Of a DNA stretch of 64,000 bases, positions 20,966-35,646 are shown in pieces (within the stretch, counting starts at the first letter, position 1; each line of letters begins with the position of its first letter). Position numbers and translations under genes: made by a program. Under the pieces are notes generated by a model that did not search any database, had not been told where the DNA came from, and was given only the letters and a program-made list of their open reading frames with translations. Source of the stretch: a phage; the NCBI GenBank assembly GCA_012365435.1, contig GCA_012365435.1_4518.1; one strand, given 5' to 3'.

Positions 20966-21421
20966 TTAAGCTTTACGAGGAGACACATAGCGAGTGATTT
21001 CAGATTCTTTAACAACTCGGAAGTCACCTAAGAATACGATATTGTATAACTTTTCACCATCTTCAACCCATTGGTCACTAATGAAGCCGCACATAGTATC
21101 AGTTTTGCTTGGATAACCGTATTCATCGATGAAGTCAAATTCTTTATCAGTCTGGAATTCAACACCTTTACACAAGGCCCATTTGAACTGTACATTAGGT
21201 TCAGTAGAAGCAAAATGAGCACTCACATGAGTTTCCAAGAATTTAGGACTTACGTAAGCGTACTGAGTTTCAGTTTTTCCGGAACTAGGAATGATTCGAA
21301 CTTTAACTTCTTTAACACGTCCAGTACCATTAGTACGAAGTCCGACAACTTCAACCAGACGACCTGCAGCTTTAGAACGAGATGCAGATGATACACGCTT
21401 AATTTCACCAATAGTAATCAT
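20966..21421 (-). CDS. Hypothetical protein, paralogue family member B
   Basis: 151 aa; same motifs as member A. Confidence 0.55.
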   Translation of the reverse strand: MITIGEIKRVSSASRSKAAGRLVEVVGLRTNGTGRVKEVKVRIIPSSGKTETQYAYVSPKFLETHVSAHFASTEPNVQFKWALCKGVEFQTDKEFDFIDEYGYPSKTDTMCGFISDQWVEDGEKLYNIVFLGDFRVVKESEITRYVSPRKA

Positions 21422-21485: not shown

Positions 21486-21980
21486 TTAATTAAGGATATT
21501 AACCACAGCACTACGTGGAACTACACTAAAATCACCTGCATGAACAACGTTCAGAAGTTCAACACCGTCTTCAATCCATTGGTCAGTTACCCATCCATTT
21601 ACTGGACCAGCGAATGGGCGTCGAATTGAAACATATTTACACAACAAATCAGTAGGCTCAATAGGCTTAATCAGAGTACCGTACATACAAGTGATATCCA
21701 TATCAATACAGATATCTTTAACGGGTTCTACTTCTTCAATCAACAGTTCAAAGTCGGTGCTTGGAAGGGCGGTAGTAGAAATTGTACCATATGAATTTTT
21801 AATTTCTAAGAATAACCAAGGGCCTTCAACTTGTTTGATGAAGTTAACAATAGTGAAACTATTACCTTGAGTGGCACCTAAAATTTCACAAAACTTTTCA
21901 TAAGCTCGCACTGAAGCACCGTACCAGTTGATTTGTTTTTCATCTTTCAGGATGTAAGTAGCCGTGGTATTGATATTCAT
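21486..21980 (-). CDS. Hypothetical protein, paralogue family member C (divergent)
   Basis: C-terminal GWVTDQWIEDGVELLNVV.AGDF.VVP related to members A/B; start moved to ATG at 21978-21980 (track start is TTG). Confidence 0.5.
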   Translation of the reverse strand: MNINTTATYILKDEKQINWYGASVRAYEKFCEILGATQGNSFTIVNFIKQVEGPWLFLEIKNSYGTISTTALPSTDFELLIEEVEPVKDICIDMDITCMYGTLIKPIEPTDLLCKYVSIRRPFAGPVNGWVTDQWIEDGVELLNVVHAGDFSVVPRSAVVNILN

Positions 21981-22045
21981 AATGTTTTCCCGTTTGGTTA
22001 AGATAGAAAGATTATACTCCAACCATCCTTGGTTGTAAACTGTTT

Positions 22046-24356: not shown

Positions 24357-25103
24357 TTAACCTTTAATCAGTTGGAATAATGATGCGCTAAGTGGTAGGC
24401 CACGTTTCAATTTTAATTTACCAATGAAACCAATCTTTTCAAAACGTTGCAGACCTTGGATAACTTTATCATATGTATCGAAAAGCGATTCAGCGTCAGT
24501 TAATTTAGTTTTAGTTTTCCAGTCAGAGCCTTTAAGAAGAACGTTGAGTTTAGTAAGTTCATGGCCTTCTGCTTGATGTGAGCCATTAATGCGTGCTTTC
24601 AAAGCAACAATTCTAAGTTTAGATTCGTTAGATAAAGGTTGATTTTTCATCATGTTCGCCATATGCTTAACACGATTTTCACGTTTTGCTCGGATTTTTA
24701 AAATAGTATCATAAACCTTTTTAATTTGGGCCCATTTCTTCTCGTCGAGATTAAGTTTCTCTACTTTACGGGCAGAAGGATTAGCAATACGTCTTGCAAC
24801 AGTGTCACGTTTCTCAATAAGTTCTTCTAGTGTTAAATCAGAACGAGCCGTGTTATATTTTTTCTTAACTGGGATAACATTACCTTTAATGTAGCCTATA
24901 TCGTTATTAAAACGTTCTAAGGATAATTTCTCACCTTCAACAGAGTTATTAAAAGATTCACCTGAGTAAGCGCAGACCTTTTGATCAAGAATGTTTTTAA
25001 GGTAATTAAAGTCTAAGTTAAAATCCTTAGAGCGTCTCTTCGCAGAAGCTCTGGTGTGGTCAAGACGACGATTGATTTTGTTAATTTTATTATTTGATAA
25101 CAT
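24357..25103 (-). CDS. srd: Srd-like protein (sigma decoy region homologue)
   Basis: 248 aa basic protein at T4 srd position. Confidence 0.5.
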   Translation of the reverse strand: MLSNNKINKINRRLDHTRASAKRRSKDFNLDFNYLKNILDQKVCAYSGESFNNSVEGEKLSLERFNNDIGYIKGNVIPVKKKYNTARSDLTLEELIEKRDTVARRIANPSARKVEKLNLDEKKWAQIKKVYDTILKIRAKRENRVKHMANMMKNQPLSNESKLRIVALKARINGSHQAEGHELTKLNVLLKGSDWKTKTKLTDAESLFDTYDKVIQGLQRFEKIGFIGKLKLKRGLPLSASLFQLIKG

Positions 25104-25256: not shown

Positions 25257-25865
25257 TCAGTAACTGACAATAGACAGATTCCAGATTGTATAACGTCCAT
25301 CTTGAATAATAGAATCTACACGCAGTGTAGTCCCTATAGGGAGCATAAATTCACATTCGTCAGATATAAGTCTAGCATTAGACCGTCTTGTCGCTTCAGG
25401 GAAAGCTCCATTGAACTCGCAAGATGGCGCAGCCAGAATCATATTAAGCATATGTTCACGGAAGTTGAAAGCAAATGGTGCATCTTTGATGCAGAACATA
25501 TTAAATGTTCCGTAAAAATTATACGAAGCAAAGTTACGTGCTACACCGAACACTGGGCTGAAGCTCATTACTCTGTCAAATTTAATAATACTACCAATGC
25601 CTTTATCATCAAGTGTGGCCATAGTTTTCTTAGAGATTCCACGATACATTGTCTCAGGAACAGAAGACGTCCAATTTCTACGAACGATTGAACTTAACTC
25701 CTGTTGGATGCTATCTGGCTTGTTTTCCATACACTGCCACAGTACACTTTGTTCAATGTCGCTGAATTGACTATCAATTTCGTACTGCAATACATCTTGA
25801 TATTCGGGGTTTTGAGCACGACGAACCATTTCTTCAATTTCACACTCGTTATACGGCATAAACAT
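25257..25865 (-). CDS. modA: ADP-ribosyltransferase ModA
   Basis: 202 aa; blocks SVLWQCMEN, MYRGISKKT as in T4 ModA (R-S-E type ART). Confidence 0.7.
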   Translation of the reverse strand: MFMPYNECEIEEMVRRAQNPEYQDVLQYEIDSQFSDIEQSVLWQCMENKPDSIQQELSSIVRRNWTSSVPETMYRGISKKTMATLDDKGIGSIIKFDRVMSFSPVFGVARNFASYNFYGTFNMFCIKDAPFAFNFREHMLNMILAAPSCEFNGAFPEATRRSNARLISDECEFMLPIGTTLRVDSIIQDGRYTIWNLSIVSY

Positions 25866-25922
25866 TTAGGTTTCTCCTGTGGTTGATAAAAGTATAATAT
25901 CATCATCGGAAGAGTTTGTACA

Positions 25923-26504
25923 CTAAAAATTCAACATTTTCAAATGAATGATTTTGTATAACCGAGATAAAGGGTCATATTCTAAGTCTTCAATTTCCAC
26001 AATCTCAAATCTAGAGATACCTGAGACCATGTATTCTTGTTCAGATTCAATCATATCTAGGACGTCAACACGCGTTTCTTCCATAACATGCTTAGGATTC
26101 TTTCCAGCGAGTATAATGTTAACCATGTTTTGGTAGTAATCAAAAATGAATGGAGCATTTCGAAGACTAAGAATAGTGTACGTTTGATATTCCCATCTCC
26201 CAGAGAATTGACGAGCTGTACTGAAATCAGTTGTGAATGATGTCACGCGTCCAGGAGACCAATGGCATCCAACAGAAAGAAGGGAAAGACGTTCTACTTC
26301 TTCTGGAGTTACACCACGGTAGAGTTCTACTGGTACTGTAGAAGTCATATGCTTACGGACAAGATGGTCTAATTCATAGTGGAAATCTGGGTCTTCCTTA
26401 GAATCAGTGCAAGCCCAGAGAATGTTTTGTTCTTGGCGGGTGAATTTGCTATCAATCAGATTTGTTAGGTATTCGCGTTCTTGAAGTTCAGATTGACATG
26501 TCAT
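25923..26504 (-). CDS. modB: ADP-ribosyltransferase ModB
   Basis: 193 aa paralogue of ModA (NILWACTDSK, LYRGVT); position after modA. Confidence 0.65.
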   Translation of the reverse strand: MTCQSELQEREYLTNLIDSKFTRQEQNILWACTDSKEDPDFHYELDHLVRKHMTSTVPVELYRGVTPEEVERLSLLSVGCHWSPGRVTSFTTDFSTARQFSGRWEYQTYTILSLRNAPFIFDYYQNMVNIILAGKNPKHVMEETRVDVLDMIESEQEYMVSGISRFEIVEIEDLEYDPLSRLYKIIHLKMLNF

Positions 26505-31262: not shown

Positions 31263-31922
31263 TTAACCTCGATTCATAAATGCATTAAATATTTGGTCAT
31301 CAACAGAAATTTCTAATTCGACTTCAATTGCTTCAACCTTTTCTTCAGGTGGTAATTCGTATCCACACACTACAATTTTTTCATCGATATCAAAATATAC
31401 AGAAGCAATACGATTAATGTTACTTTCAGTTAAGTCTAAATCAACATCAACATCTTTTTGACCTACACTTAAAGGATAACTAATACGAGTTATTTTATTA
31501 TCTTTAACAAAGAGTCCACCAACATACTCTGTACTACGTTTGAAGTTTACACGTTTCCGAATTGAAAGATATGATACATCTTTACCGTGAGCTCGGCTCA
31601 TAGGACATAATGAATAGCTAGAATAAGAGATGTCAAATCCTACACCTTCAATATGAGCCAACGTGTCATGAGTAAACCAATTATAATCATATGCCAAATC
31701 CATTAAATTATAATATGTGAAAGGCACTGGATTAACATCATATGTTGTACCTTTAAAATCTGCCCAGGCGACGATTTCGTTATCTTTAACAATTACAAAA
31801 ATTACACCAATATGATATCCGTTATTATTTTCATTCGGTGTTATATTATAACATTGTGCATTAGGAAATTTACCATATTTAAATGGCGCGTTTTTGTGCA
31901 TGTAATAAATCATATTATTCAC
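31263..31922 (-). CDS. Hypothetical protein (219 aa)
   Basis: ORF track. Confidence 0.5.
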   Translation of the reverse strand: MNNMIYYMHKNAPFKYGKFPNAQCYNITPNENNNGYHIGVIFVIVKDNEIVAWADFKGTTYDVNPVPFTYYNLMDLAYDYNWFTHDTLAHIEGVGFDISYSSYSLCPMSRAHGKDVSYLSIRKRVNFKRSTEYVGGLFVKDNKITRISYPLSVGQKDVDVDLDLTESNINRIASVYFDIDEKIVVCGYELPPEEKVEAIEVELEISVDDQIFNAFMNRG

Positions 31923-32950: not shown

Positions 32951-32978
32951 TTCAATTTCCTCTATAGTTGATAGGTCT

Positions 32979-33007
32979 ATAGTATCACTACCATAGACCC
33001 CTGTAAA
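32979..33007 (-). promoter_or_regulatory. Early promoter upstream of lipoprotein gene
   Basis: - strand GTTTACA, 17 nt, TACTAT; flanked by inverted repeat aggtctat/atagacc. Confidence 0.55.
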
Positions 33008-33020
33008 CAATTATTTTATT

Positions 33021-33161
33021 TTATTCCTCGTCTTCATGCTCGTAAGCATGTTCTTCAGATTCACGGTCGCAGTCTAAACAAGTCGCATTATCATATGCAT
33101 CGAAAACAGCTTCGTCTTCATAGACGCTACAACCACACACTACACATTCTACTTCTTCCAT
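33021..33161 (-). CDS. Small acidic zinc-ribbon protein (46 aa)
   Basis: MEEVECVVCGC...CLDC two CxxC pairs, acidic tail; start just after dmd stop. Confidence 0.4.
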   Translation of the reverse strand: MEEVECVVCGCSVYEDEAVFDAYDNATCLDCDRESEEHAYEHEDEE

Positions 33162-33162
33162 T

Positions 33163-33366
33163 TTAGATTTCCTCTTTACGCCAATCGGATTCAAAAACTT
33201 TCTTATCATCAACAAATGCTTCAACTAAAGCTTTATTTACTTCAGCAAATTGAGAAGTGGCCCGTAGGATTTGGTCTTTATCAGACACGTCCATGGTAAC
33301 TTCTTTGGTAAACATATTCCCATTTTCAAACCAACCAATAAACAACACTTTAGCCATATTTTCCAT
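33163..33366 (-). CDS. dmd: Dmd (discriminator of mRNA degradation; antitoxin against RnlA/LsoA)
   Basis: From MENMAKVLFIGWF about 67 aa; matches T4 Dmd (VFMGWF...FTKE.TM...AEVNKALV.AF.DDKKV) as recalled. Confidence 0.7.
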   Translation of the reverse strand: MENMAKVLFIGWFENGNMFTKEVTMDVSDKDQILRATSQFAEVNKALVEAFVDDKKVFESDWRKEEI

Positions 33367-33367
33367 T

Positions 33368-33685
33368 TTAGATTTCCTCACAGAAGGCCCATTCAGCGTG
33401 ATAAACTGTAGCACCTTTAGTATCATTCATTTGAACTACGTCTACCGGAGAAATTACTCGATAGAGACGTGGTTCACCTCCATAAGAGCGTGCTGCTCGT
33501 CCTGCATAAATCTTTGCTAAACCGATATCTTCAGTAAAGAATACACGATCCAAGTTTTTCTTACGTCCAGTTTCAGACAGAACTCCTGTTTCTTCAGGAG
33601 GACAAAGCATGTTTTCGATGTTAGCTGAACTACTTGAACCGTGATAAAAAATCTTAAATTCTGCTTTACAATCGATGGTTTTCAT
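33368..33685 (-). CDS. Arr-like putative mono-ADP-ribosyltransferase (105 aa)
   Basis: FYHGSSS, RVFFTED, RLYRVISP blocks resemble FYHGT/YFSAL/YIYIVEP of the rifampin ADP-ribosyltransferase fold; inserted between dmd and 41. Confidence 0.45.
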   Translation of the reverse strand: MKTIDCKAEFKIFYHGSSSSANIENMLCPPEETGVLSETGRKKNLDRVFFTEDIGLAKIYAGRAARSYGGEPRLYRVISPVDVVQMNDTKGATVYHAEWAFCEEI

Positions 33686-33711
33686 TTTGTTCTCCAGTAG
33701 TTGATAGGTCT

Positions 33712-33739
33712 ATAATAACACAACTACTGGAGAAGTAAA
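33712..33739 (-). promoter_or_regulatory. Early promoter upstream of Arr-like gene, bracketed by 10-bp perfect inverted repeat
   Basis: - strand GTTTACT, 16 nt, TATTAT; ccagtagttg (33694-33703) and caactactgg (33721-33730) flank the -10. Confidence 0.45.
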
Positions 33740-33740
33740 C

Positions 33741-34115
33741 TTAAAAACGTAATTTAGATATATCTGCGTTGATTTCGTTTTGGTTTGCGTCGTATGCAAT
33801 TAAACGAACCGCTTTAGATGGGTCATTCAATGCATAGAAATGATGGAACATTGCTCGAACGATATCACCATTTACGAGTTCTACCTGGATAGGAGAACCT
33901 TTTTCGAGTTGGAAATGTTCATAAGCTTTGATGGTTCGTAGATAATCAAGTTTTTGATTTCCCGCTCCAACTATTTGTACGATACGTTTGCCCATGTTTT
34001 CCATACGAGATACAATAGTTTTAGGAGCAAGAATAACGTAGGTTTCCAGCGGAGAAACTACTTCAACAGTTGTGTTTTCGGTGATTGCAGTAAAAATTGC
34101 TTGAGACATATTCAT
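33741..34115 (-). CDS. Hypothetical protein (124 aa)
   Basis: ORF track; own early promoter; between dmd region and gene 41. Confidence 0.5.
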   Translation of the reverse strand: MNMSQAIFTAITENTTVEVVSPLETYVILAPKTIVSRMENMGKRIVQIVGAGNQKLDYLRTIKAYEHFQLEKGSPIQVELVNGDIVRAMFHHFYALNDPSKAVRLIAYDANQNEINADISKLRF

Positions 34116-34144
34116 AATGTTTTCCTCTTGGTTGGTGTAAGTAC

Positions 34145-34173
34145 ATCATATCATGCCTAGAGGAAGATGTAAA
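34145..34173 (-). promoter_or_regulatory. Early promoter
   Basis: - strand GGTTTACA, 17 nt, TATGAT. Confidence 0.5.
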
Positions 34174-34180
34174 CCCCGAA

Positions 34181-34198
34181 AGGAGACCGAAGTCTCCT
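34181..34198 (-). terminator. C(UUCG)G hairpin immediately after gene 41 stop (possible bidirectional terminator)
   Basis: aggagac-cgaa-gtctcct; T-run follows on + strand, UUUCGGGGUUU on - strand. Confidence 0.45.
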
Positions 34199-34203
34199 TT
34201 TTA

Positions 34204-35646
34204 TTAAAATTTTAACTCGTTGGCTAAGCTATCTAGGTCAGCACGTGTTGCTTTGGCTTTACCTACGCGTTCCGTACGATTCACCTCTGCCTGACGCATC
34301 TGAGCACCTGCGTTTTCATTTACTGTGTTAGGTGTGTTCATGCCTTCTTGCTCAATCTCAACCCATTTCTGATTGCCTTTACGTACACCCATCAAGAACT
34401 TGTTCCACTTATTCTTATCACCGTATCGTGATTTGATTTGTTTGATAAGTTGTTGTTCAGCTTGTGCAAGTTCTTCGGTTTCAATTACGGCCAACATGAA
34501 ATCTGCCGTTGCTGGTAAACCTGCTGATTCTGCGATATCACTCATGTTCATGTCTGAAGCATCCCATGCTGCACGTCCTACTTGAGCTGCAGTCCATAGA
34601 ACTGTTTCAGATTCTACTGCTAATGCACGAAGTTCTTCTGCGATAGCTTTAACTAATGTGTAGCTATTTTCAGTGTAAACTCTGATACGACAAGACCCAC
34701 AAATACCTAAGTAATCAACCATGATTACAGATGGCACAAAGTTCTTCTTAAGTTTTAACTCATTAAGCAATGCACGAAATGTATTAGCATTAGCTCCGCC
34801 AGTAGGATACTGTTTAACTACTAAACGTCCTAATGTGGATTTTGAACGCCATTTTTCCATCTTGGCTTTATATTCAGCATAAGATACGTTACCATCATCG
34901 ATATCATCGAGTGATACGTCAAGCATGTTTGCATCTATACGCTTAGCACAAACTTCTTCAGCCATTTCCATGGAAATATAAAGAACATTATGACCTGTTT
35001 GAAGATAATCTGCAGCAAGTGAACAAAGGCCTAAAGATTTACCGACGTTAACACCGGCCATTAAAACGTTTAGTGTACCGGTTTCAGCACCACCTTTAGT
35101 GATTTTATTCAAAATGTTTAATTTGAACGGGACCTTACGTGCTTTATTTAGATAAGAAAGCCAGCGTGCTTCGTAGTCTTCCATCCAGTCATGTCCAACA
35201 TAACTATCGAACGAAATTGAAAGTGCTTGACGCATAATATCAGGAATAGCTCCTACGTCAGGCATTTTCTTGTTACGTTGTTCTGGAGGTAGTTCAGCAT
35301 TAGACTGAATCTCAATGATTTTGGATGTAGCATTATACATCGCTTTTTGCTGGACATATTTCTCAGTTTCTTTAACCAACCATTCGTGGTCTTCAGGAGT
35401 GTCAGCCAATTTTTCAATTAGGTCTGAAGTTCCTTTATATTCGGCTTCAGTTAAAGAACTGTTATCTAAAGCCACCTTTAATGCATTGATAGATGGCATT
35501 GCATTATATTCGTTAACGTGGCTCTTTATAATTTTAAAGACGTTTTTTGCCGGTCCACGCTCAAAATACTCAGAATCCATATAAGGCCAGACCTTAGAAA
35601 AATAAGCCTGGTCATATACTAGATGAGACAAAATAATTTCTACCAC
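34204..35646 (-). CDS. 41: Replicative DNA helicase gp41 (DnaB-like)
   Basis: 480 aa; Walker A GVNVGKS; matches T4 gp41 length and position. Confidence 0.9.
   Translation of the reverse strand: MVEIILSHLVYDQAYFSKVWPYMDSEYFERGPAKNVFKIIKSHVNEYNAMPSINALKVALDNSSLTEAEYKGTSDLIEKLADTPEDHEWLVKETEKYVQQKAMYNATSKIIEIQSNAELPPEQRNKKMPDVGAIPDIMRQALSISFDSYVGHDWMEDYEARWLSYLNKARKVPFKLNILNKITKGGAETGTLNVLMAGVNVGKSLGLCSLAADYLQTGHNVLYISMEMAEEVCAKRIDANMLDVSLDDIDDGNVSYAEYKAKMEKWRSKSTLGRLVVKQYPTGGANANTFRALLNELKLKKNFVPSVIMVDYLGICGSCRIRVYTENSYTLVKAIAEELRALAVESETVLWTAAQVGRAAWDASDMNMSDIAESAGLPATADFMLAVIETEELAQAEQQLIKQIKSRYGDKNKWNKFLMGVRKGNQKWVEIEQEGMNTPNTVNENAGAQMRQAEVNRTERVGKAKATRADLDSLANELKF

What the first reader, a model, noticed from the sequence alone, without database searches (positions are those of the whole stretch)
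33368..34115. Arr-like putative ADP-ribosyltransferase and a 124-aa partner inserted between dmd and helicase gene 41
T4 has, as I recall, no genes between dmd and 41. Here there are two, each with its own early promoter. The 105-aa protein has FYHGSSS, RVFFTED and RLYRVISP blocks that parallel conserved blocks of the small rifampin ADP-ribosyltransferase (Arr) fold. Its position beside the antitoxin-like dmd suggests an early anti-defence or host-takeover enzyme separate from ModA/ModB.
Basis: inference. Interest (0 to 1): 0.6.

Follow-up and report, generated by a model that had tools for sequence, protein, structure and literature searches.

The report
Minimal Arr-like ADP-ribosyltransferase phage gene
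A small early gene of this RB69-like phage encodes a stripped-down ADP-ribosyltransferase-fold protein whose nearest characterised relatives are the rifampicin-modifying enzyme Arr and the RNA enzyme Tpt1/KptA. It is real, widespread and untested in the lab, but it has already been predicted in print and in databases, and the neighbouring 124-aa gene is not a demonstrable partner.

Summary
Two minus-strand ORFs lie between gene 41 and dmd: 105 aa at 33368-33685 (RB69ORF040c) and 124 aa at 33741-34115 (RB69ORF041c). Each has a promoter-like site, and T4 has neither gene.

The 105-aa protein is an ADP-ribosyltransferase-fold domain:
- hhalign against true Arr gives 96% probability, while ART-PolyVal and KptA controls give about 2%.
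- Distant family members pass Pfam's Arr-ms threshold.
- H15-G16-[ST], F49-x-T51, Y60 and E38 are essentially invariant in 93 divergent representatives.

The family occurs in 610 phage records and as a module of giant polyvalent virion proteins.

The published idea that it forms a toxin-antitoxin pair with Dmd (Iyer et al. 2022) is not supported. Only 9 of 55 IMG/VR loci have Dmd nearby, and Dmd varies while the ART stays identical.

The 124-aa ORF is a Mosigvirus-restricted ORFan with no recognisable fold.

The most likely role is an NAD+-dependent early effector. The acceptor is unknown, and I favour a non-protein one. No experimental study was found.

The parts
33368..33685 (-). 105-aa minimal ADP-ribosyltransferase-fold protein (orthologue of RB69ORF040c; phrog_2110)
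33712..33739 (-). promoter-like site (TTTACT-16-TATTAT, TG-extended) directly upstream of the ART-like ORF
   Evidence: Equivalent GTTTAC...TATAAT-type sites precede the homologues in Dhakavirus, Acinetobacter and Aeromonas phages. No transcript data were examined.
33685..33739 (-). inverted repeat/hairpin: the 5' arm overlaps the -35, the loop holds the -10, and the 3' arm holds the Shine-Dalgarno GGAG (33695..33692) up to the ATG
   Evidence: I2: 19-nt arms, 89% complementary. RNA fold -25 kcal/mol, z = -6.5. A weaker TCTCC/GGAGA pairing is present in related phages. Function is inferred.
33741..34115 (-). 124-aa ORFan (orthologue of RB69ORF041c; phrog_10668), function unknown
   Evidence: ORF. 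Only 2 homologue clusters among 5.8 billion proteins. 135 phage records, 133 of them at >=95% identity. No Pfam, NCBIfam, PADLOC or PDB match. AF2 pLDDT 35.9, unusable.
34145..34173 (-). promoter-like site (TTTACA-17-TATGAT, TG-extended) upstream of the 124-aa ORF
   Evidence: 10 of 12 matches.
34179..34200 (-). 9-bp UUCG-tetraloop hairpin 4 nt after the gene 41 stop codon
   Evidence: The same hairpin with a compensatory A-U to G-C change is seen in IMG/VR loci L029/L030.
33163..33366 (-). dmd (antitoxin against RnlA/LsoA). It starts 1 nt after the ART-like stop codon, and its Shine-Dalgarno GAGGAA lies inside the ART-like 3' end.
   Evidence: Pfam Dmd E 2.2e-21. Junction sequence.
33361..33379 (.). 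19-nt junction repeat (minus strand GAGGAAATCTAAAATGGAA), copy 1, at the ART-like/dmd boundary
   Evidence: D5, 100% identical.
33156..33174 (.). 19-nt junction repeat, copy 2, at the boundary between dmd and the 46-aa CxxC ORF. Together the two copies bracket dmd exactly.
   Evidence: D5. Loci L028-L030 have the same junction but no dmd.

Best explanation
ORF 33368..33685(-) encodes a free-standing minimal ADP-ribosyltransferase (ART) domain of about 95 residues. It belongs to a phage-borne family whose nearest characterised relatives are rifampicin ADP-ribosyltransferase Arr and RNA 2'-phosphotransferase Tpt1/KptA.

Shown: homology to Arr; the ART fold; strict conservation of the NAD+-pocket signature (H15-G16-[ST]17 on strand 1, F49-x-T51 on strand 2, Y60 on the following helix) plus a family-specific E38-x-G-R-K-K-N motif; strong purifying selection; its own promoter-like site; and recurrence of the domain inside giant polyvalent or virion proteins.

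Inferred:
- It binds NAD+ and transfers ADP-ribose to a host or defence-related acceptor in the first minutes of infection, as a fourth ART alongside Alt/ModA/ModB.
- The residue I infer, from the model's secondary structure, to be the canonical catalytic position (start of strand 5) is T/S, not Glu, in T4-like members. Its closest relatives modify non-protein O-nucleophiles. I therefore favour a nucleic-acid end or small-molecule acceptor over a protein side chain.
- The hairpin that buries its Shine-Dalgarno sequence in read-through RNA would restrict translation to transcripts started at its own early promoter.

Its position next to dmd reflects residence in the hypervariable gene 41-61 accessory/anti-defence island (Dmd, AdfA, Imm, Sp), not a functional pair with Dmd. 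The 124-aa ORF is an unrelated lineage-specific gene of unknown function.
For: Sequence:
- A1-profile relatives (E 1e-23 to 1e-26) pass the Pfam Arr-ms gathering score on this very domain: P0134 27.5, P0153 29.4, P0129 26.9 and L068 25.6 bits against a cutoff of 25.
- The A2 profile's top PDB sequence hits are Arr 2HW2/9IAF at E 0.006.
- hhalign of A2 against three genuine Arr gives 96.3% probability, E 1.9e-9, and 92.5% against a single Arr.
- Controls: ART-PolyVal 1.6% and E. coli KptA 2.1%.

Structure:
- AF2 pLDDT 91.3, pTM 0.82.
- Foldseek: Arr is the top hit (E 5e-3, probability 1.00), followed by KptA/Tpt1.

Conservation:
- H15, G16 and Y60 in 93/93; [TS]17 in 93/93; E38 in 92/93; F49 in 91/93 (the other two are Y); T51 in 90/93.
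- dN/dS 0.05-0.12.

Distribution and context:
- 610 phage records across Escherichia, Klebsiella, Acinetobacter, Aeromonas and Vibrio phages.
- The domain occurs within proteins of up to 3924 aa together with ART-PolyVal, NUDIX, portal, 2H/Acb1, CHAP, GNAT and Toprim domains.
- Promoter-like site. Hairpin.
- AdfA lies 1.4 kb away.

Precedent: AcrIF11 is a small phage ART that acts as an anti-defence enzyme (PMC11383003).
Against: - No biochemical or genetic data exist for any family member (literature searches).
- The window protein itself gets no Pfam hit. Only 3 of 36 close homologues give sub-threshold Arr-ms hits.
- The tyrosine of Arr (Y49) is phenylalanine here.
- No acidic residue aligns with Arr D84. 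E103 is invariant only in the T4-like subfamily.
- hhalign covers only residues 8-85.
- Binding without catalysis cannot be excluded.
- The acceptor class is pure inference.
- Promoter and hairpin function are predicted from sequence only.
Confidence: 0.6

Rival explanations
1. Type II toxin-antitoxin module carried by the phage: the ART-like protein is a toxin and the adjacent Dmd is its antitoxin, as proposed by Iyer, Burroughs, Anantharaman and Aravind 2022 for 'p0068-family ART + Dmd' in Escherichia, Shigella and Salmonella phages.
Against: - Only 9 of 55 IMG/VR loci with the ART-like gene have Dmd within 4 kb.
- Phages named Klebsiella, Acinetobacter, Aeromonas, Enterobacter, Cronobacter or Vibrio hold 303 ART records but at most 8 Dmd records.
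- Downstream neighbours elsewhere are unrelated proteins or none at all. In Vibrio phage henriette the next feature is a terminator-like hairpin.
- T4 has Dmd without the ART.
- The ART is 100% identical while Dmd is only about 52% identical in APCEc01, so the pair does not co-vary.
- Loci L028-L030 have the ART followed directly by the 46-aa CxxC gene, with no dmd.
- Dmd already has established targets, RnlA and LsoA.
Confidence: 0.08
2. A protein-modifying mono-ART of the AcrIF11/Alt type: it ADP-ribosylates a specific host protein, such as a defence effector, RNA polymerase or a translation factor.
Against: T4-like members have T or S, not E/D/Q, at position 93. Sequence and fold affinity is clearly strongest to Arr and Tpt1, which modify non-protein acceptors.
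Confidence: 0.25
3. A catalytically inert ART-fold binder: a sponge or decoy for NAD+, ADP-ribose or ADPR-derived immune signals, or a stoichiometric inhibitor of a host factor.
For: There is no conserved canonical catalytic Glu. The protein is very small and expressed early. Phage sponges for nucleotide signals are a known strategy (own knowledge).
Against: H-G-[TS], [FY]-x-T and Y60 are invariant in 93 of 93 lineages, together with an invariant E38 and R41. This pattern is typical of enzymes. Arr and Tpt1 also lack the Glu yet are active enzymes.
Confidence: 0.12
4. A genuine Arr orthologue that protects the host RNA polymerase from rifamycins during infection.
For: Arr is the closest characterised family by sequence. 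T4-like phages depend on host RNA polymerase.
Against: The protein is 105 aa against Arr's 138-150 aa. The Arr C-terminal third (invariant DPNLT..KKFPGNPT..SYR..W) is not matched, since hhalign stops at Arr-2 residue 90. The window protein fails the Pfam Arr-ms model. The family-specific E-x-GRKKN motif is absent from Arr.
Confidence: 0.02

Closest known systems
Arr, rifampin ADP-ribosyltransferase (Pfam PF12120; PDB 2HW2, 9IAF, 9IBA)
   Different: The phage protein is about 40 residues shorter and lacks Arr's conserved C-terminal third. Arr Y49 is F here, and Arr's W at +10 is Y at +11. No residue aligns with Arr D84. It carries the E-x-GRKKN motif that Arr lacks. The window protein does not reach the Pfam threshold. 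It is phage-borne and expressed early, not an integron or chromosomal resistance gene.
Tpt1/KptA RNA 2'-phosphotransferase (PDB 9LD3, 7KW9, 1WFX)
   Different: No significant profile similarity to E. coli KptA (2.1%). The phage protein lacks Tpt1's N-terminal RNA-binding lobe (105 aa against about 180 aa). Tpt1's Arg-His-Arg-Arg tetrad was not identified.
AcrIF11, phage/plasmid anti-CRISPR mono-ADP-ribosyltransferase (PDB 6KYF; PMC11383003)
   Different: The structural score is lower than for Arr and Tpt1. AcrIF11 modifies a protein (Cas8f). No sequence-level link was tested here because its sequence was not at hand.
T4 Alt / ModA / ModB (R-S-E clade ARTs)
   Same: These are phage T4-type enzymes that ADP-ribosylate host components early in infection. 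A ModA/ModB-like pair is present in this same window at 25257..26504.
   Different: They belong to a different ART clade (R-S-E rather than H-aromatic) and are twice the size or more. They are not among the listed fold-search hits. The gene studied here is absent from T4 at this locus.
'p0068-family ART + Dmd' predicted phage toxin-antitoxin system (Iyer et al. 2022, Viruses 14:1977)
   Same: The published description matches this locus: an ART-like gene next to dmd in Escherichia, Shigella and Salmonella T4-like phages. I infer that it is the same gene, because no accession numbers are available in the held text.
   Different: My data place the family nearest Arr and Tpt1 rather than typical H-Y-[EDQ] protein ARTs. 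They also do not support obligate pairing with Dmd.
ART-PolyVal (PF18760), the ART of polyvalent proteins
   Same: It co-occurs in the same giant phage or conjugative-element polypeptides as this domain: P0132, P0141, P0164. It is presumed to be an early-delivered effector.
   Different: It is not specifically related: hhalign 1.6%. It is an H-Y-D family of about 140 residues.

Membership tests
ADP-ribosyltransferase superfamily (ART fold) | Split beta-sheet ART fold detectable by structure comparison | tested here: met
ADP-ribosyltransferase superfamily (ART fold) | Strand 1 His in an H-G-[ST] motif (NAD+ ribose/amide contact) | tested here: met
   H15 and G16 in 93/93, [TS]17 in 93/93 divergent representatives. 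H15 aligns with Arr-ms H19.
ADP-ribosyltransferase superfamily (ART fold) | Strand 2 aromatic-x-[ST] plus a second aromatic about 10-11 residues later (nicotinamide stacking) | tested here: met
   F49 in 91/93 (Y in 2), T51 in 90/93, Y60 in 93/93. F49 aligns with Arr-ms Y49. The equivalence to PARP and diphtheria toxin spacing rests on my own knowledge.
ADP-ribosyltransferase superfamily (ART fold) | Catalytic E/D/Q at the start of strand 5 (H-Y-[EDQ] clade) | tested here: inconclusive
   Position 93 is T in 51, E in 18, S in 12 and N in 4 of 93 representatives, and T/S in all T4-like members. Residue mapping comes from the model's secondary structure only; coordinates could not be superposed.
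ADP-ribosyltransferase superfamily (ART fold) | NAD+-dependent transfer or hydrolysis activity | not testable with these tools
   Needs biochemistry. No published assay was found.
Arr (rifampin ADP-ribosyltransferase, PF12120) | Matches the Pfam Arr-ms model above its gathering score | tested here: not met
   The window protein gives no hit even at E <= 10. Three of 36 close homologues hit only sub-threshold, best E 0.026. Distant relatives do pass, at 25.6-29.4 bits, so the protein is homologous to Arr but not a member of the family.
Arr (rifampin ADP-ribosyltransferase, PF12120) | Full-length Arr architecture including the conserved C-terminal third (DPNLT..KKFPGNPT..SYR..W..) | tested here: not met
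   Only residues 8-85 align with Arr-2 residues 15-90. The invariant C-terminal Arr residues have no counterpart. The protein is 105 aa against 138-150 aa.
Arr (rifampin ADP-ribosyltransferase, PF12120) | H19 / Y49 / D84 triad of Arr-ms | tested here: inconclusive
   H is conserved, Y is replaced by F, and D84 lies just beyond the alignable region.
Arr (rifampin ADP-ribosyltransferase, PF12120) | Confers rifamycin resistance by ADP-ribosylating the antibiotic | not testable with these tools
   Requires an MIC assay or mass spectrometry.
Type II toxin-antitoxin pair (ART toxin + Dmd antitoxin) | Adjacent, co-directional, translationally linked genes | tested here: met
   There is a 1-nt gap, and dmd's Shine-Dalgarno sequence lies inside the ART-like 3' end.
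Type II toxin-antitoxin pair (ART toxin + Dmd antitoxin) | The pair is conserved wherever the toxin occurs | tested here: not met
   9 of 55 IMG/VR loci have Dmd within 4 kb. There are 303 ART records in phage groups that hold at most 8 Dmd records. Downstream neighbours are heterogeneous or absent.
Type II toxin-antitoxin pair (ART toxin + Dmd antitoxin) | Toxin and antitoxin co-vary | tested here: not met
   ART is >=99% identical in 121 records, while Dmd is >=95% identical in only 10. In APCEc01 the ART is 100% and Dmd 52% identical. dmd is bracketed by identical 19-nt junctions and is absent in L028-L030.
Type II toxin-antitoxin pair (ART toxin + Dmd antitoxin) | Toxicity that the cognate antitoxin neutralises | not testable with these tools
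   Needs expression experiments.
Polyvalent-protein effector domains (Iyer et al. 2017, PMC5512222) | The domain recurs inside very large multidomain phage or conjugative-element proteins alongside other effector domains | tested here: met
   51 of 106 full domain matches lie C-terminally or internally in longer proteins of up to 3924 aa. Co-occurring domains are ART-PolyVal, NUDIX, portal, 2H/Acb1, CHAP, GNAT and Toprim. The window gene itself is the stand-alone form.

The most novel reading that the evidence does not exclude
The family is a new kind of phage counter-defence enzyme that uses NAD+ to ADP-ribosylate a non-protein acceptor. Candidates are an RNA or DNA terminal phosphate or hydroxyl (for example, ends produced by host RNases such as RnlA/LsoA, ToxN or anticodon nucleases), or a nucleotide-derived immune signal or antiphage small molecule. 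This would extend Arr/Tpt1-type chemistry to virus-host conflict. The invariant E-x-GRKKN motif would be the acceptor-phosphate binding site.
Probability: 0.2. Interest if true: 0.75.

Novelty: new member of a known kind. Interest (0 to 1): 0.4.

Why it matters
T4-type phages are the textbook case of viral ADP-ribosylation through Alt, ModA and ModB. This is a fourth ART, unrelated to those three and much smaller. It is present in at least 610 sequenced phages of Escherichia, Klebsiella, Acinetobacter, Aeromonas and Vibrio, including the tractable models RB69 and BASEL Bas46/Bas47. It is under strong purifying selection and recurs as a module of injected polyvalent proteins.

Its nearest relatives modify a drug (Arr) or RNA phosphates (Tpt1), so its acceptor may be unusual. 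Finding that acceptor could reveal a new host-takeover or anti-defence chemistry.

The present work also removes two tempting but unsupported readings, the Dmd toxin-antitoxin pairing and the 124-aa 'partner'. This narrows the experiments worth doing. It is not a discovery of a new kind of system, because the ART assignment is already public.

Tried and rejected
- Direct Pfam, NCBIfam and PADLOC scans of both proteins gave nothing. PHROGs returned only 'unknown function' families.
- A PDB profile search with the close-homologue alignment A1 found nothing. It worked only after broadening to A2.
The afdb50 fold library was unavailable.
- The 124-aa ORF gave only 2 homologue clusters, no PDB hit and an AF2 model of pLDDT 35.9, so no fold search was attempted and no function is proposed.
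- The genome-contig scan gave only 6 loci: three are phage contigs, two are orphan genes in CPR bacteria with uninformative neighbours, and one is a 1.3-kb fragment.
- I looked for a conserved downstream 'antitoxin' or upstream partner across 55 IMG/VR loci and found none. The only recurrent neighbours are lineage-specific, and PHROGs annotates them as unknown.
- Rfam found no known RNA in the region.
- Base composition shows no sign of recent foreign origin.
- Literature searches for RB69ORF040c/041c, p0068, phage ARTs, and Dmd together with ADP-ribosylation found no experimental work. The supplements of Iyer et al. are not held, so the identity of 'p0068 family' with this gene remains an inference.
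- I rejected the reading as a true Arr resistance enzyme and the reading as a chance ORF.
Full report
**Source and anatomy**

The window is a Mosigvirus (RB69-like T-even phage). Positions 33100-34250 are 99.4-99.6% identical to Escherichia phage LF82-41 and Shigella phage SHSML-52-1.

On the minus strand, in order of transcription, the genes are:
- uvsX
- gene 40
- gene 41 (34204..35646)
- a 124-aa ORF (33741..34115), the orthologue of RB69ORF041c
- a 105-aa ORF (33368..33685), the orthologue of RB69ORF040c
- dmd (33163..33366)
- a 46-aa CxxC...CxxC acidic ORF (33021..33161)
- an Imm.1-like DUF5481 ORF, Imm and Sp
- AdfA (31263..31922)
- primase 61

The quoted motifs are at residues 13-19, 47-53 and 73-80.

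Both new ORFs are preceded by TG-extended sigma-70/T4-early-like sites on the correct strand: 34173..34145 and 33739..33712.

**The 105-aa protein: sequence evidence**

Direct family scans were silent (Pfam, NCBIfam and PADLOC), and PHROGs gave phrog_2110, 'unknown function'. The protein nevertheless has 149 close homologue clusters. It is encoded in 610 phage records covering Escherichia, Klebsiella, Acinetobacter, Aeromonas, Enterobacter, Cronobacter, Vibrio and other phages.

An exhaustive profile search found 222 clusters at 50% identity. Several of these distant relatives, found at E 1e-23 to 1e-26, pass Pfam's own gathering score for Arr-ms (PF12120) exactly on this domain.

I built a 45-sequence alignment, A2. 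Its top PDB sequence hits are Arr 2HW2/9IAF at E 0.006, with H15 aligned to Arr-ms H19 and F49 aligned to Y49.

I fetched three genuine arr genes from plasmids and ran profile-profile comparisons:
- A2 against the three Arr: 96.3% probability, E 1.9e-9, over residues 8-85
- A2 against a single Arr: 92.5%
- A2 against ART-PolyVal (control): 1.6%
- A2 against E. coli KptA (control): 2.1%

The affinity is therefore specific to Arr and is not a generic 'HGT' artefact.

**The 105-aa protein: structure evidence**

AlphaFold2 on A2 gave pLDDT 91.3 and pTM 0.82. The order of elements is strand, short helices, strand, a long helix and then four strands, which fits a minimal ART fold.

Foldseek puts Arr first (probability 1.00), followed by KptA/Tpt1. 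In BFVD, a 94-aa family member is itself named 'Ms Rifampin ADP-ribosyl transferase'.

**Active-site reading**

I examined 93 full-length representatives that are at most 50% identical to one another:

| Position | Conservation |
|---|---|
| H15 | 93/93 |
| G16 | 93/93 |
| [TS]17 | 93/93 |
| E38 | 92/93 |
| R41 | 90/93 |
| F49 | 91/93 (Y in the other 2) |
| T51 | 90/93 |
| Y60 | 93/93 |

This is the strand 1 H-G-[ST], strand 2 aromatic-x-[ST] and second-aromatic signature of NAD+-binding ARTs. The +11 spacing matches PARP1 and diphtheria toxin, which I state from my own knowledge.

The position that should carry the catalytic Glu, at the start of strand 5, is T or S in all T4-like members and E in only 18 of 93. 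This mapping rests on the model's secondary structure, not on a superposition.

E103 is invariant only in the T4-like subfamily. A family-specific E-x-G-R-K-K-N motif lies between strands 1 and 2 and is absent from Arr.

dN/dS is 0.05 against RB69 and 0.11 against JS10.

The protein is homologous to Arr but is not a member of the Arr family. It fails the Pfam model, lacks Arr's conserved C-terminal third and is 40 residues shorter.

**Context and the Dmd question**

Iyer et al. [quoted passage not shown] This almost certainly refers to the gene studied here, but I infer that, because the supplements are not held.

The genes are indeed 1 nt apart, and dmd's Shine-Dalgarno sequence lies in the ART-like 3' end. 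The wider pattern, however, argues against a toxin-antitoxin pair:
- Dmd occurs in 799 phage records, essentially all named Escherichia, Shigella, Yersinia, Salmonella or Citrobacter. Klebsiella, Acinetobacter, Aeromonas, Enterobacter, Cronobacter and Vibrio phages hold 303 ART records but at most 8 Dmd records.
- Of 55 IMG/VR loci with the ART-like gene, only 9 have Dmd within 4 kb.
- The other downstream neighbours are a small membrane protein (9 loci), the 46-aa CxxC protein (3 loci), unrelated singletons, or nothing (14 loci).
- In Vibrio phage henriette the gene ends at a terminator-like hairpin.
- The ART-like protein is at least 99% identical in 121 records, while the window's Dmd allele is at least 95% identical in only 10. 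In APCEc01 the figures are 100% and 52%.
- dmd is bracketed by a perfect 19-nt repeat, GAGGAAATCTAAAATGGAA, which forms both stop/start junctions. JS10 has the same design. Loci L028-L030 have the junction with no dmd.

dmd therefore behaves as an exchangeable cassette inserted beside a conserved gene.

The gene 41-61 interval as a whole is an accessory, anti-defence and exclusion island. It holds Dmd, AdfA (Pfam E 1.8e-118), Imm and Sp. In RB69 and T4 it also holds TifA/61.4 (PMC9391042).

**The 124-aa ORF**

This ORF has only two homologue clusters among 5.8 billion proteins. It occurs in 135 phage records, 133 of them at 95% identity or more, and 2 at about 36% identity.

It has no family or PDB match, and its AF2 model is unusable. 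JS10-type phages carry the ART-like gene and dmd without it.

It is probably a real gene. It is conserved, it has its own promoter-like site, and its dN/dS is about 0.1, although that rests on few substitutions. Nothing links it functionally to the ART-like gene.

**The broader family**

Among the full domain matches, about 50 are stand-alone proteins of 150 aa or fewer. Thirty lie at the C-terminus and 21 inside longer proteins of up to 3924 aa.

The accompanying domains are ART-PolyVal, NUDIX, lambda-type portal, 2H/Acb1-like, CHAP, GNAT, Toprim and DUF7178. This is the 'polyvalent protein' pattern of effectors delivered with the DNA (PMC5512222).

Cellular genomes hardly carry the domain. 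A scan of 185,579 species genomes gave 6 loci. Three are phage contigs, two are orphan genes in CPR bacteria, and one is a 1.3-kb alphaproteobacterial MAG fragment.

**Regulation (inferred)**

A 19-nt inverted repeat spans 33685-33739. Its 5' arm overlaps the -35, its loop holds the -10, and its 3' arm holds the GGAG Shine-Dalgarno sequence up to the ATG. The predicted RNA hairpin has a free energy of -25 kcal/mol with z = -6.5.

RNA reading through from gene 41 or the 124-aa ORF would hide the ribosome-binding site. RNA started at the gene's own promoter, near 33705, would lack the 5' arm and leave the site free. This is the classic T4 'promoter inside a hairpin' device.

A shorter TCTCC/GGAGA pairing persists in Dhakavirus and in L028-L030. 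Homologues in other genera also carry their own GTTTAC...TATAAT-like sites.

**Mechanism, with status of each step**

- Shown: the ART fold, homology to Arr, a conserved NAD+ pocket, purifying selection, wide phage distribution and use as a polyvalent-protein module.
- Inferred: NAD+ binding and ADP-ribose transfer; immediate-early expression; a non-protein acceptor (my preference, because of the Arr/Tpt1 affinity and the T/S at the Glu position); and a counter-defence or host-takeover role.

No experimental paper was found.

The ART assignment itself is not new. UniRef names the exact sequence 'ADP-ribosyl transferase', some GenBank records say 'putative ADP-ribosyl transferase', and Iyer et al. 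published the prediction.

**Verdict**

- Novelty: an uncharacterised member of a known superfamily, already flagged in public resources.
- Interest is moderate (0.4). It is a tractable, widespread and conserved enzyme with an unknown and possibly unusual acceptor.

Noticed in passing
window 33685-33739 (-): A promoter-in-hairpin arrangement. A 19-nt inverted repeat (RNA -25 kcal/mol, z = -6.5) places the -35 in the 5' arm, the -10 in the loop, and the Shine-Dalgarno sequence and start of the ART-like ORF in the 3' arm. Read-through transcripts should therefore be translationally silent for this gene.
   Followed up: partly
window 33156-33174 and 33361-33379; loci L006, L028-L030: A perfect 19-nt direct repeat (minus strand GAGGAAATCTAAAATGGAA) forms both the ART/dmd and the dmd/46-aa-ORF junctions, so it brackets dmd exactly. 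JS10 has the same design. Three IMG/VR phages have the junction with no dmd. dmd therefore looks like an exchangeable or deletable cassette.
   Followed up: partly
window 33163-33366 (-): The window's Dmd allele (C-terminus ...RKEEI) is rare: only 10 of 799 phage records are at least 95% identical. It resembles the Dhakavirus JS10 allele more than the RB69 allele (...FRG). The adjacent ART-like gene, by contrast, is at least 99% identical in 121 records, so there is a sharp mosaic boundary at the gene junction.
   Followed up: partly
window 33021-33161 (-): The position occupied by tifA/61.4 in T4 and RB69 is taken here by a 46-aa acidic CxxC...CxxC (zinc-ribbon-like) ORF (phrog_13952, unknown function). 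No TifA-like gene lies next to dmd in this phage.
   Followed up: no
window 31263-31922 (-): This is AdfA, anti-DarT factor A (Pfam PF23813, E 1.8e-118), a known counter-defence gene 1.4 kb downstream of the ART-like gene. The gene 41-61 interval is an anti-defence and exclusion island.
   Followed up: partly
window 25257-25865 and 25923-26504 (-); 24357-25103 (-); 20966-21421 and 21486-22022 (-): A ModA/ModB-like pair (phrog_832, RNA polymerase ADP-ribosylase) follows Srd. Two MotB-family paralogues lie side by side, the second matching only the C-terminal half of the Pfam model.
   Followed up: no
window 34179-34200 (-); loci L028-L030: A 9-bp UUCG-tetraloop hairpin lies 4 nt after the gene 41 stop codon. 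It is conserved in distant relatives, with a compensatory A-U to G-C change via G-U. It has no clear U-tract, so it may be an RNA-stability element or a weak terminator.
   Followed up: partly
window 32965-32991 and 33698-33724: A 27-nt repeat (89% identical) gives the Imm.1-like ORF and the ART-like ORF the same -10 element and leader (TATAGACCTATCAAC). The motif recurs before the ART-like gene in Dhakavirus.
   Followed up: no
loci L004 (2093-2968), L007 (1680-2441), and 10 of 55 IMG/VR loci: In Slopekvirus/Karamvirus-type and Aeromonas phages, a 250-294-aa protein of unknown function (phrog_7439 / phrog_7204, mutually related) sits directly upstream of the ART-like gene. It is the only neighbour that recurs across distant phage groups.
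   Followed up: partly
cluster of the 105-aa protein: Public annotations of the same gene disagree on its start. It is 80 aa in BASEL phages Bas46/Bas47, 149 aa in Shigella phage Shf125875, 108 aa in ESh15, and 105 aa elsewhere. The 105-aa start has the GGAG Shine-Dalgarno sequence and a conserved N-terminus.
   Followed up: no
loci L015, L016 (Patescibacteria/CPR genomes): The only clearly cellular homologues found are stand-alone proteins of about 145 aa in two CPR bacterial genomes, one of them next to a transposase-like ORF. Their neighbourhoods give no functional clue.
   Followed up: partly
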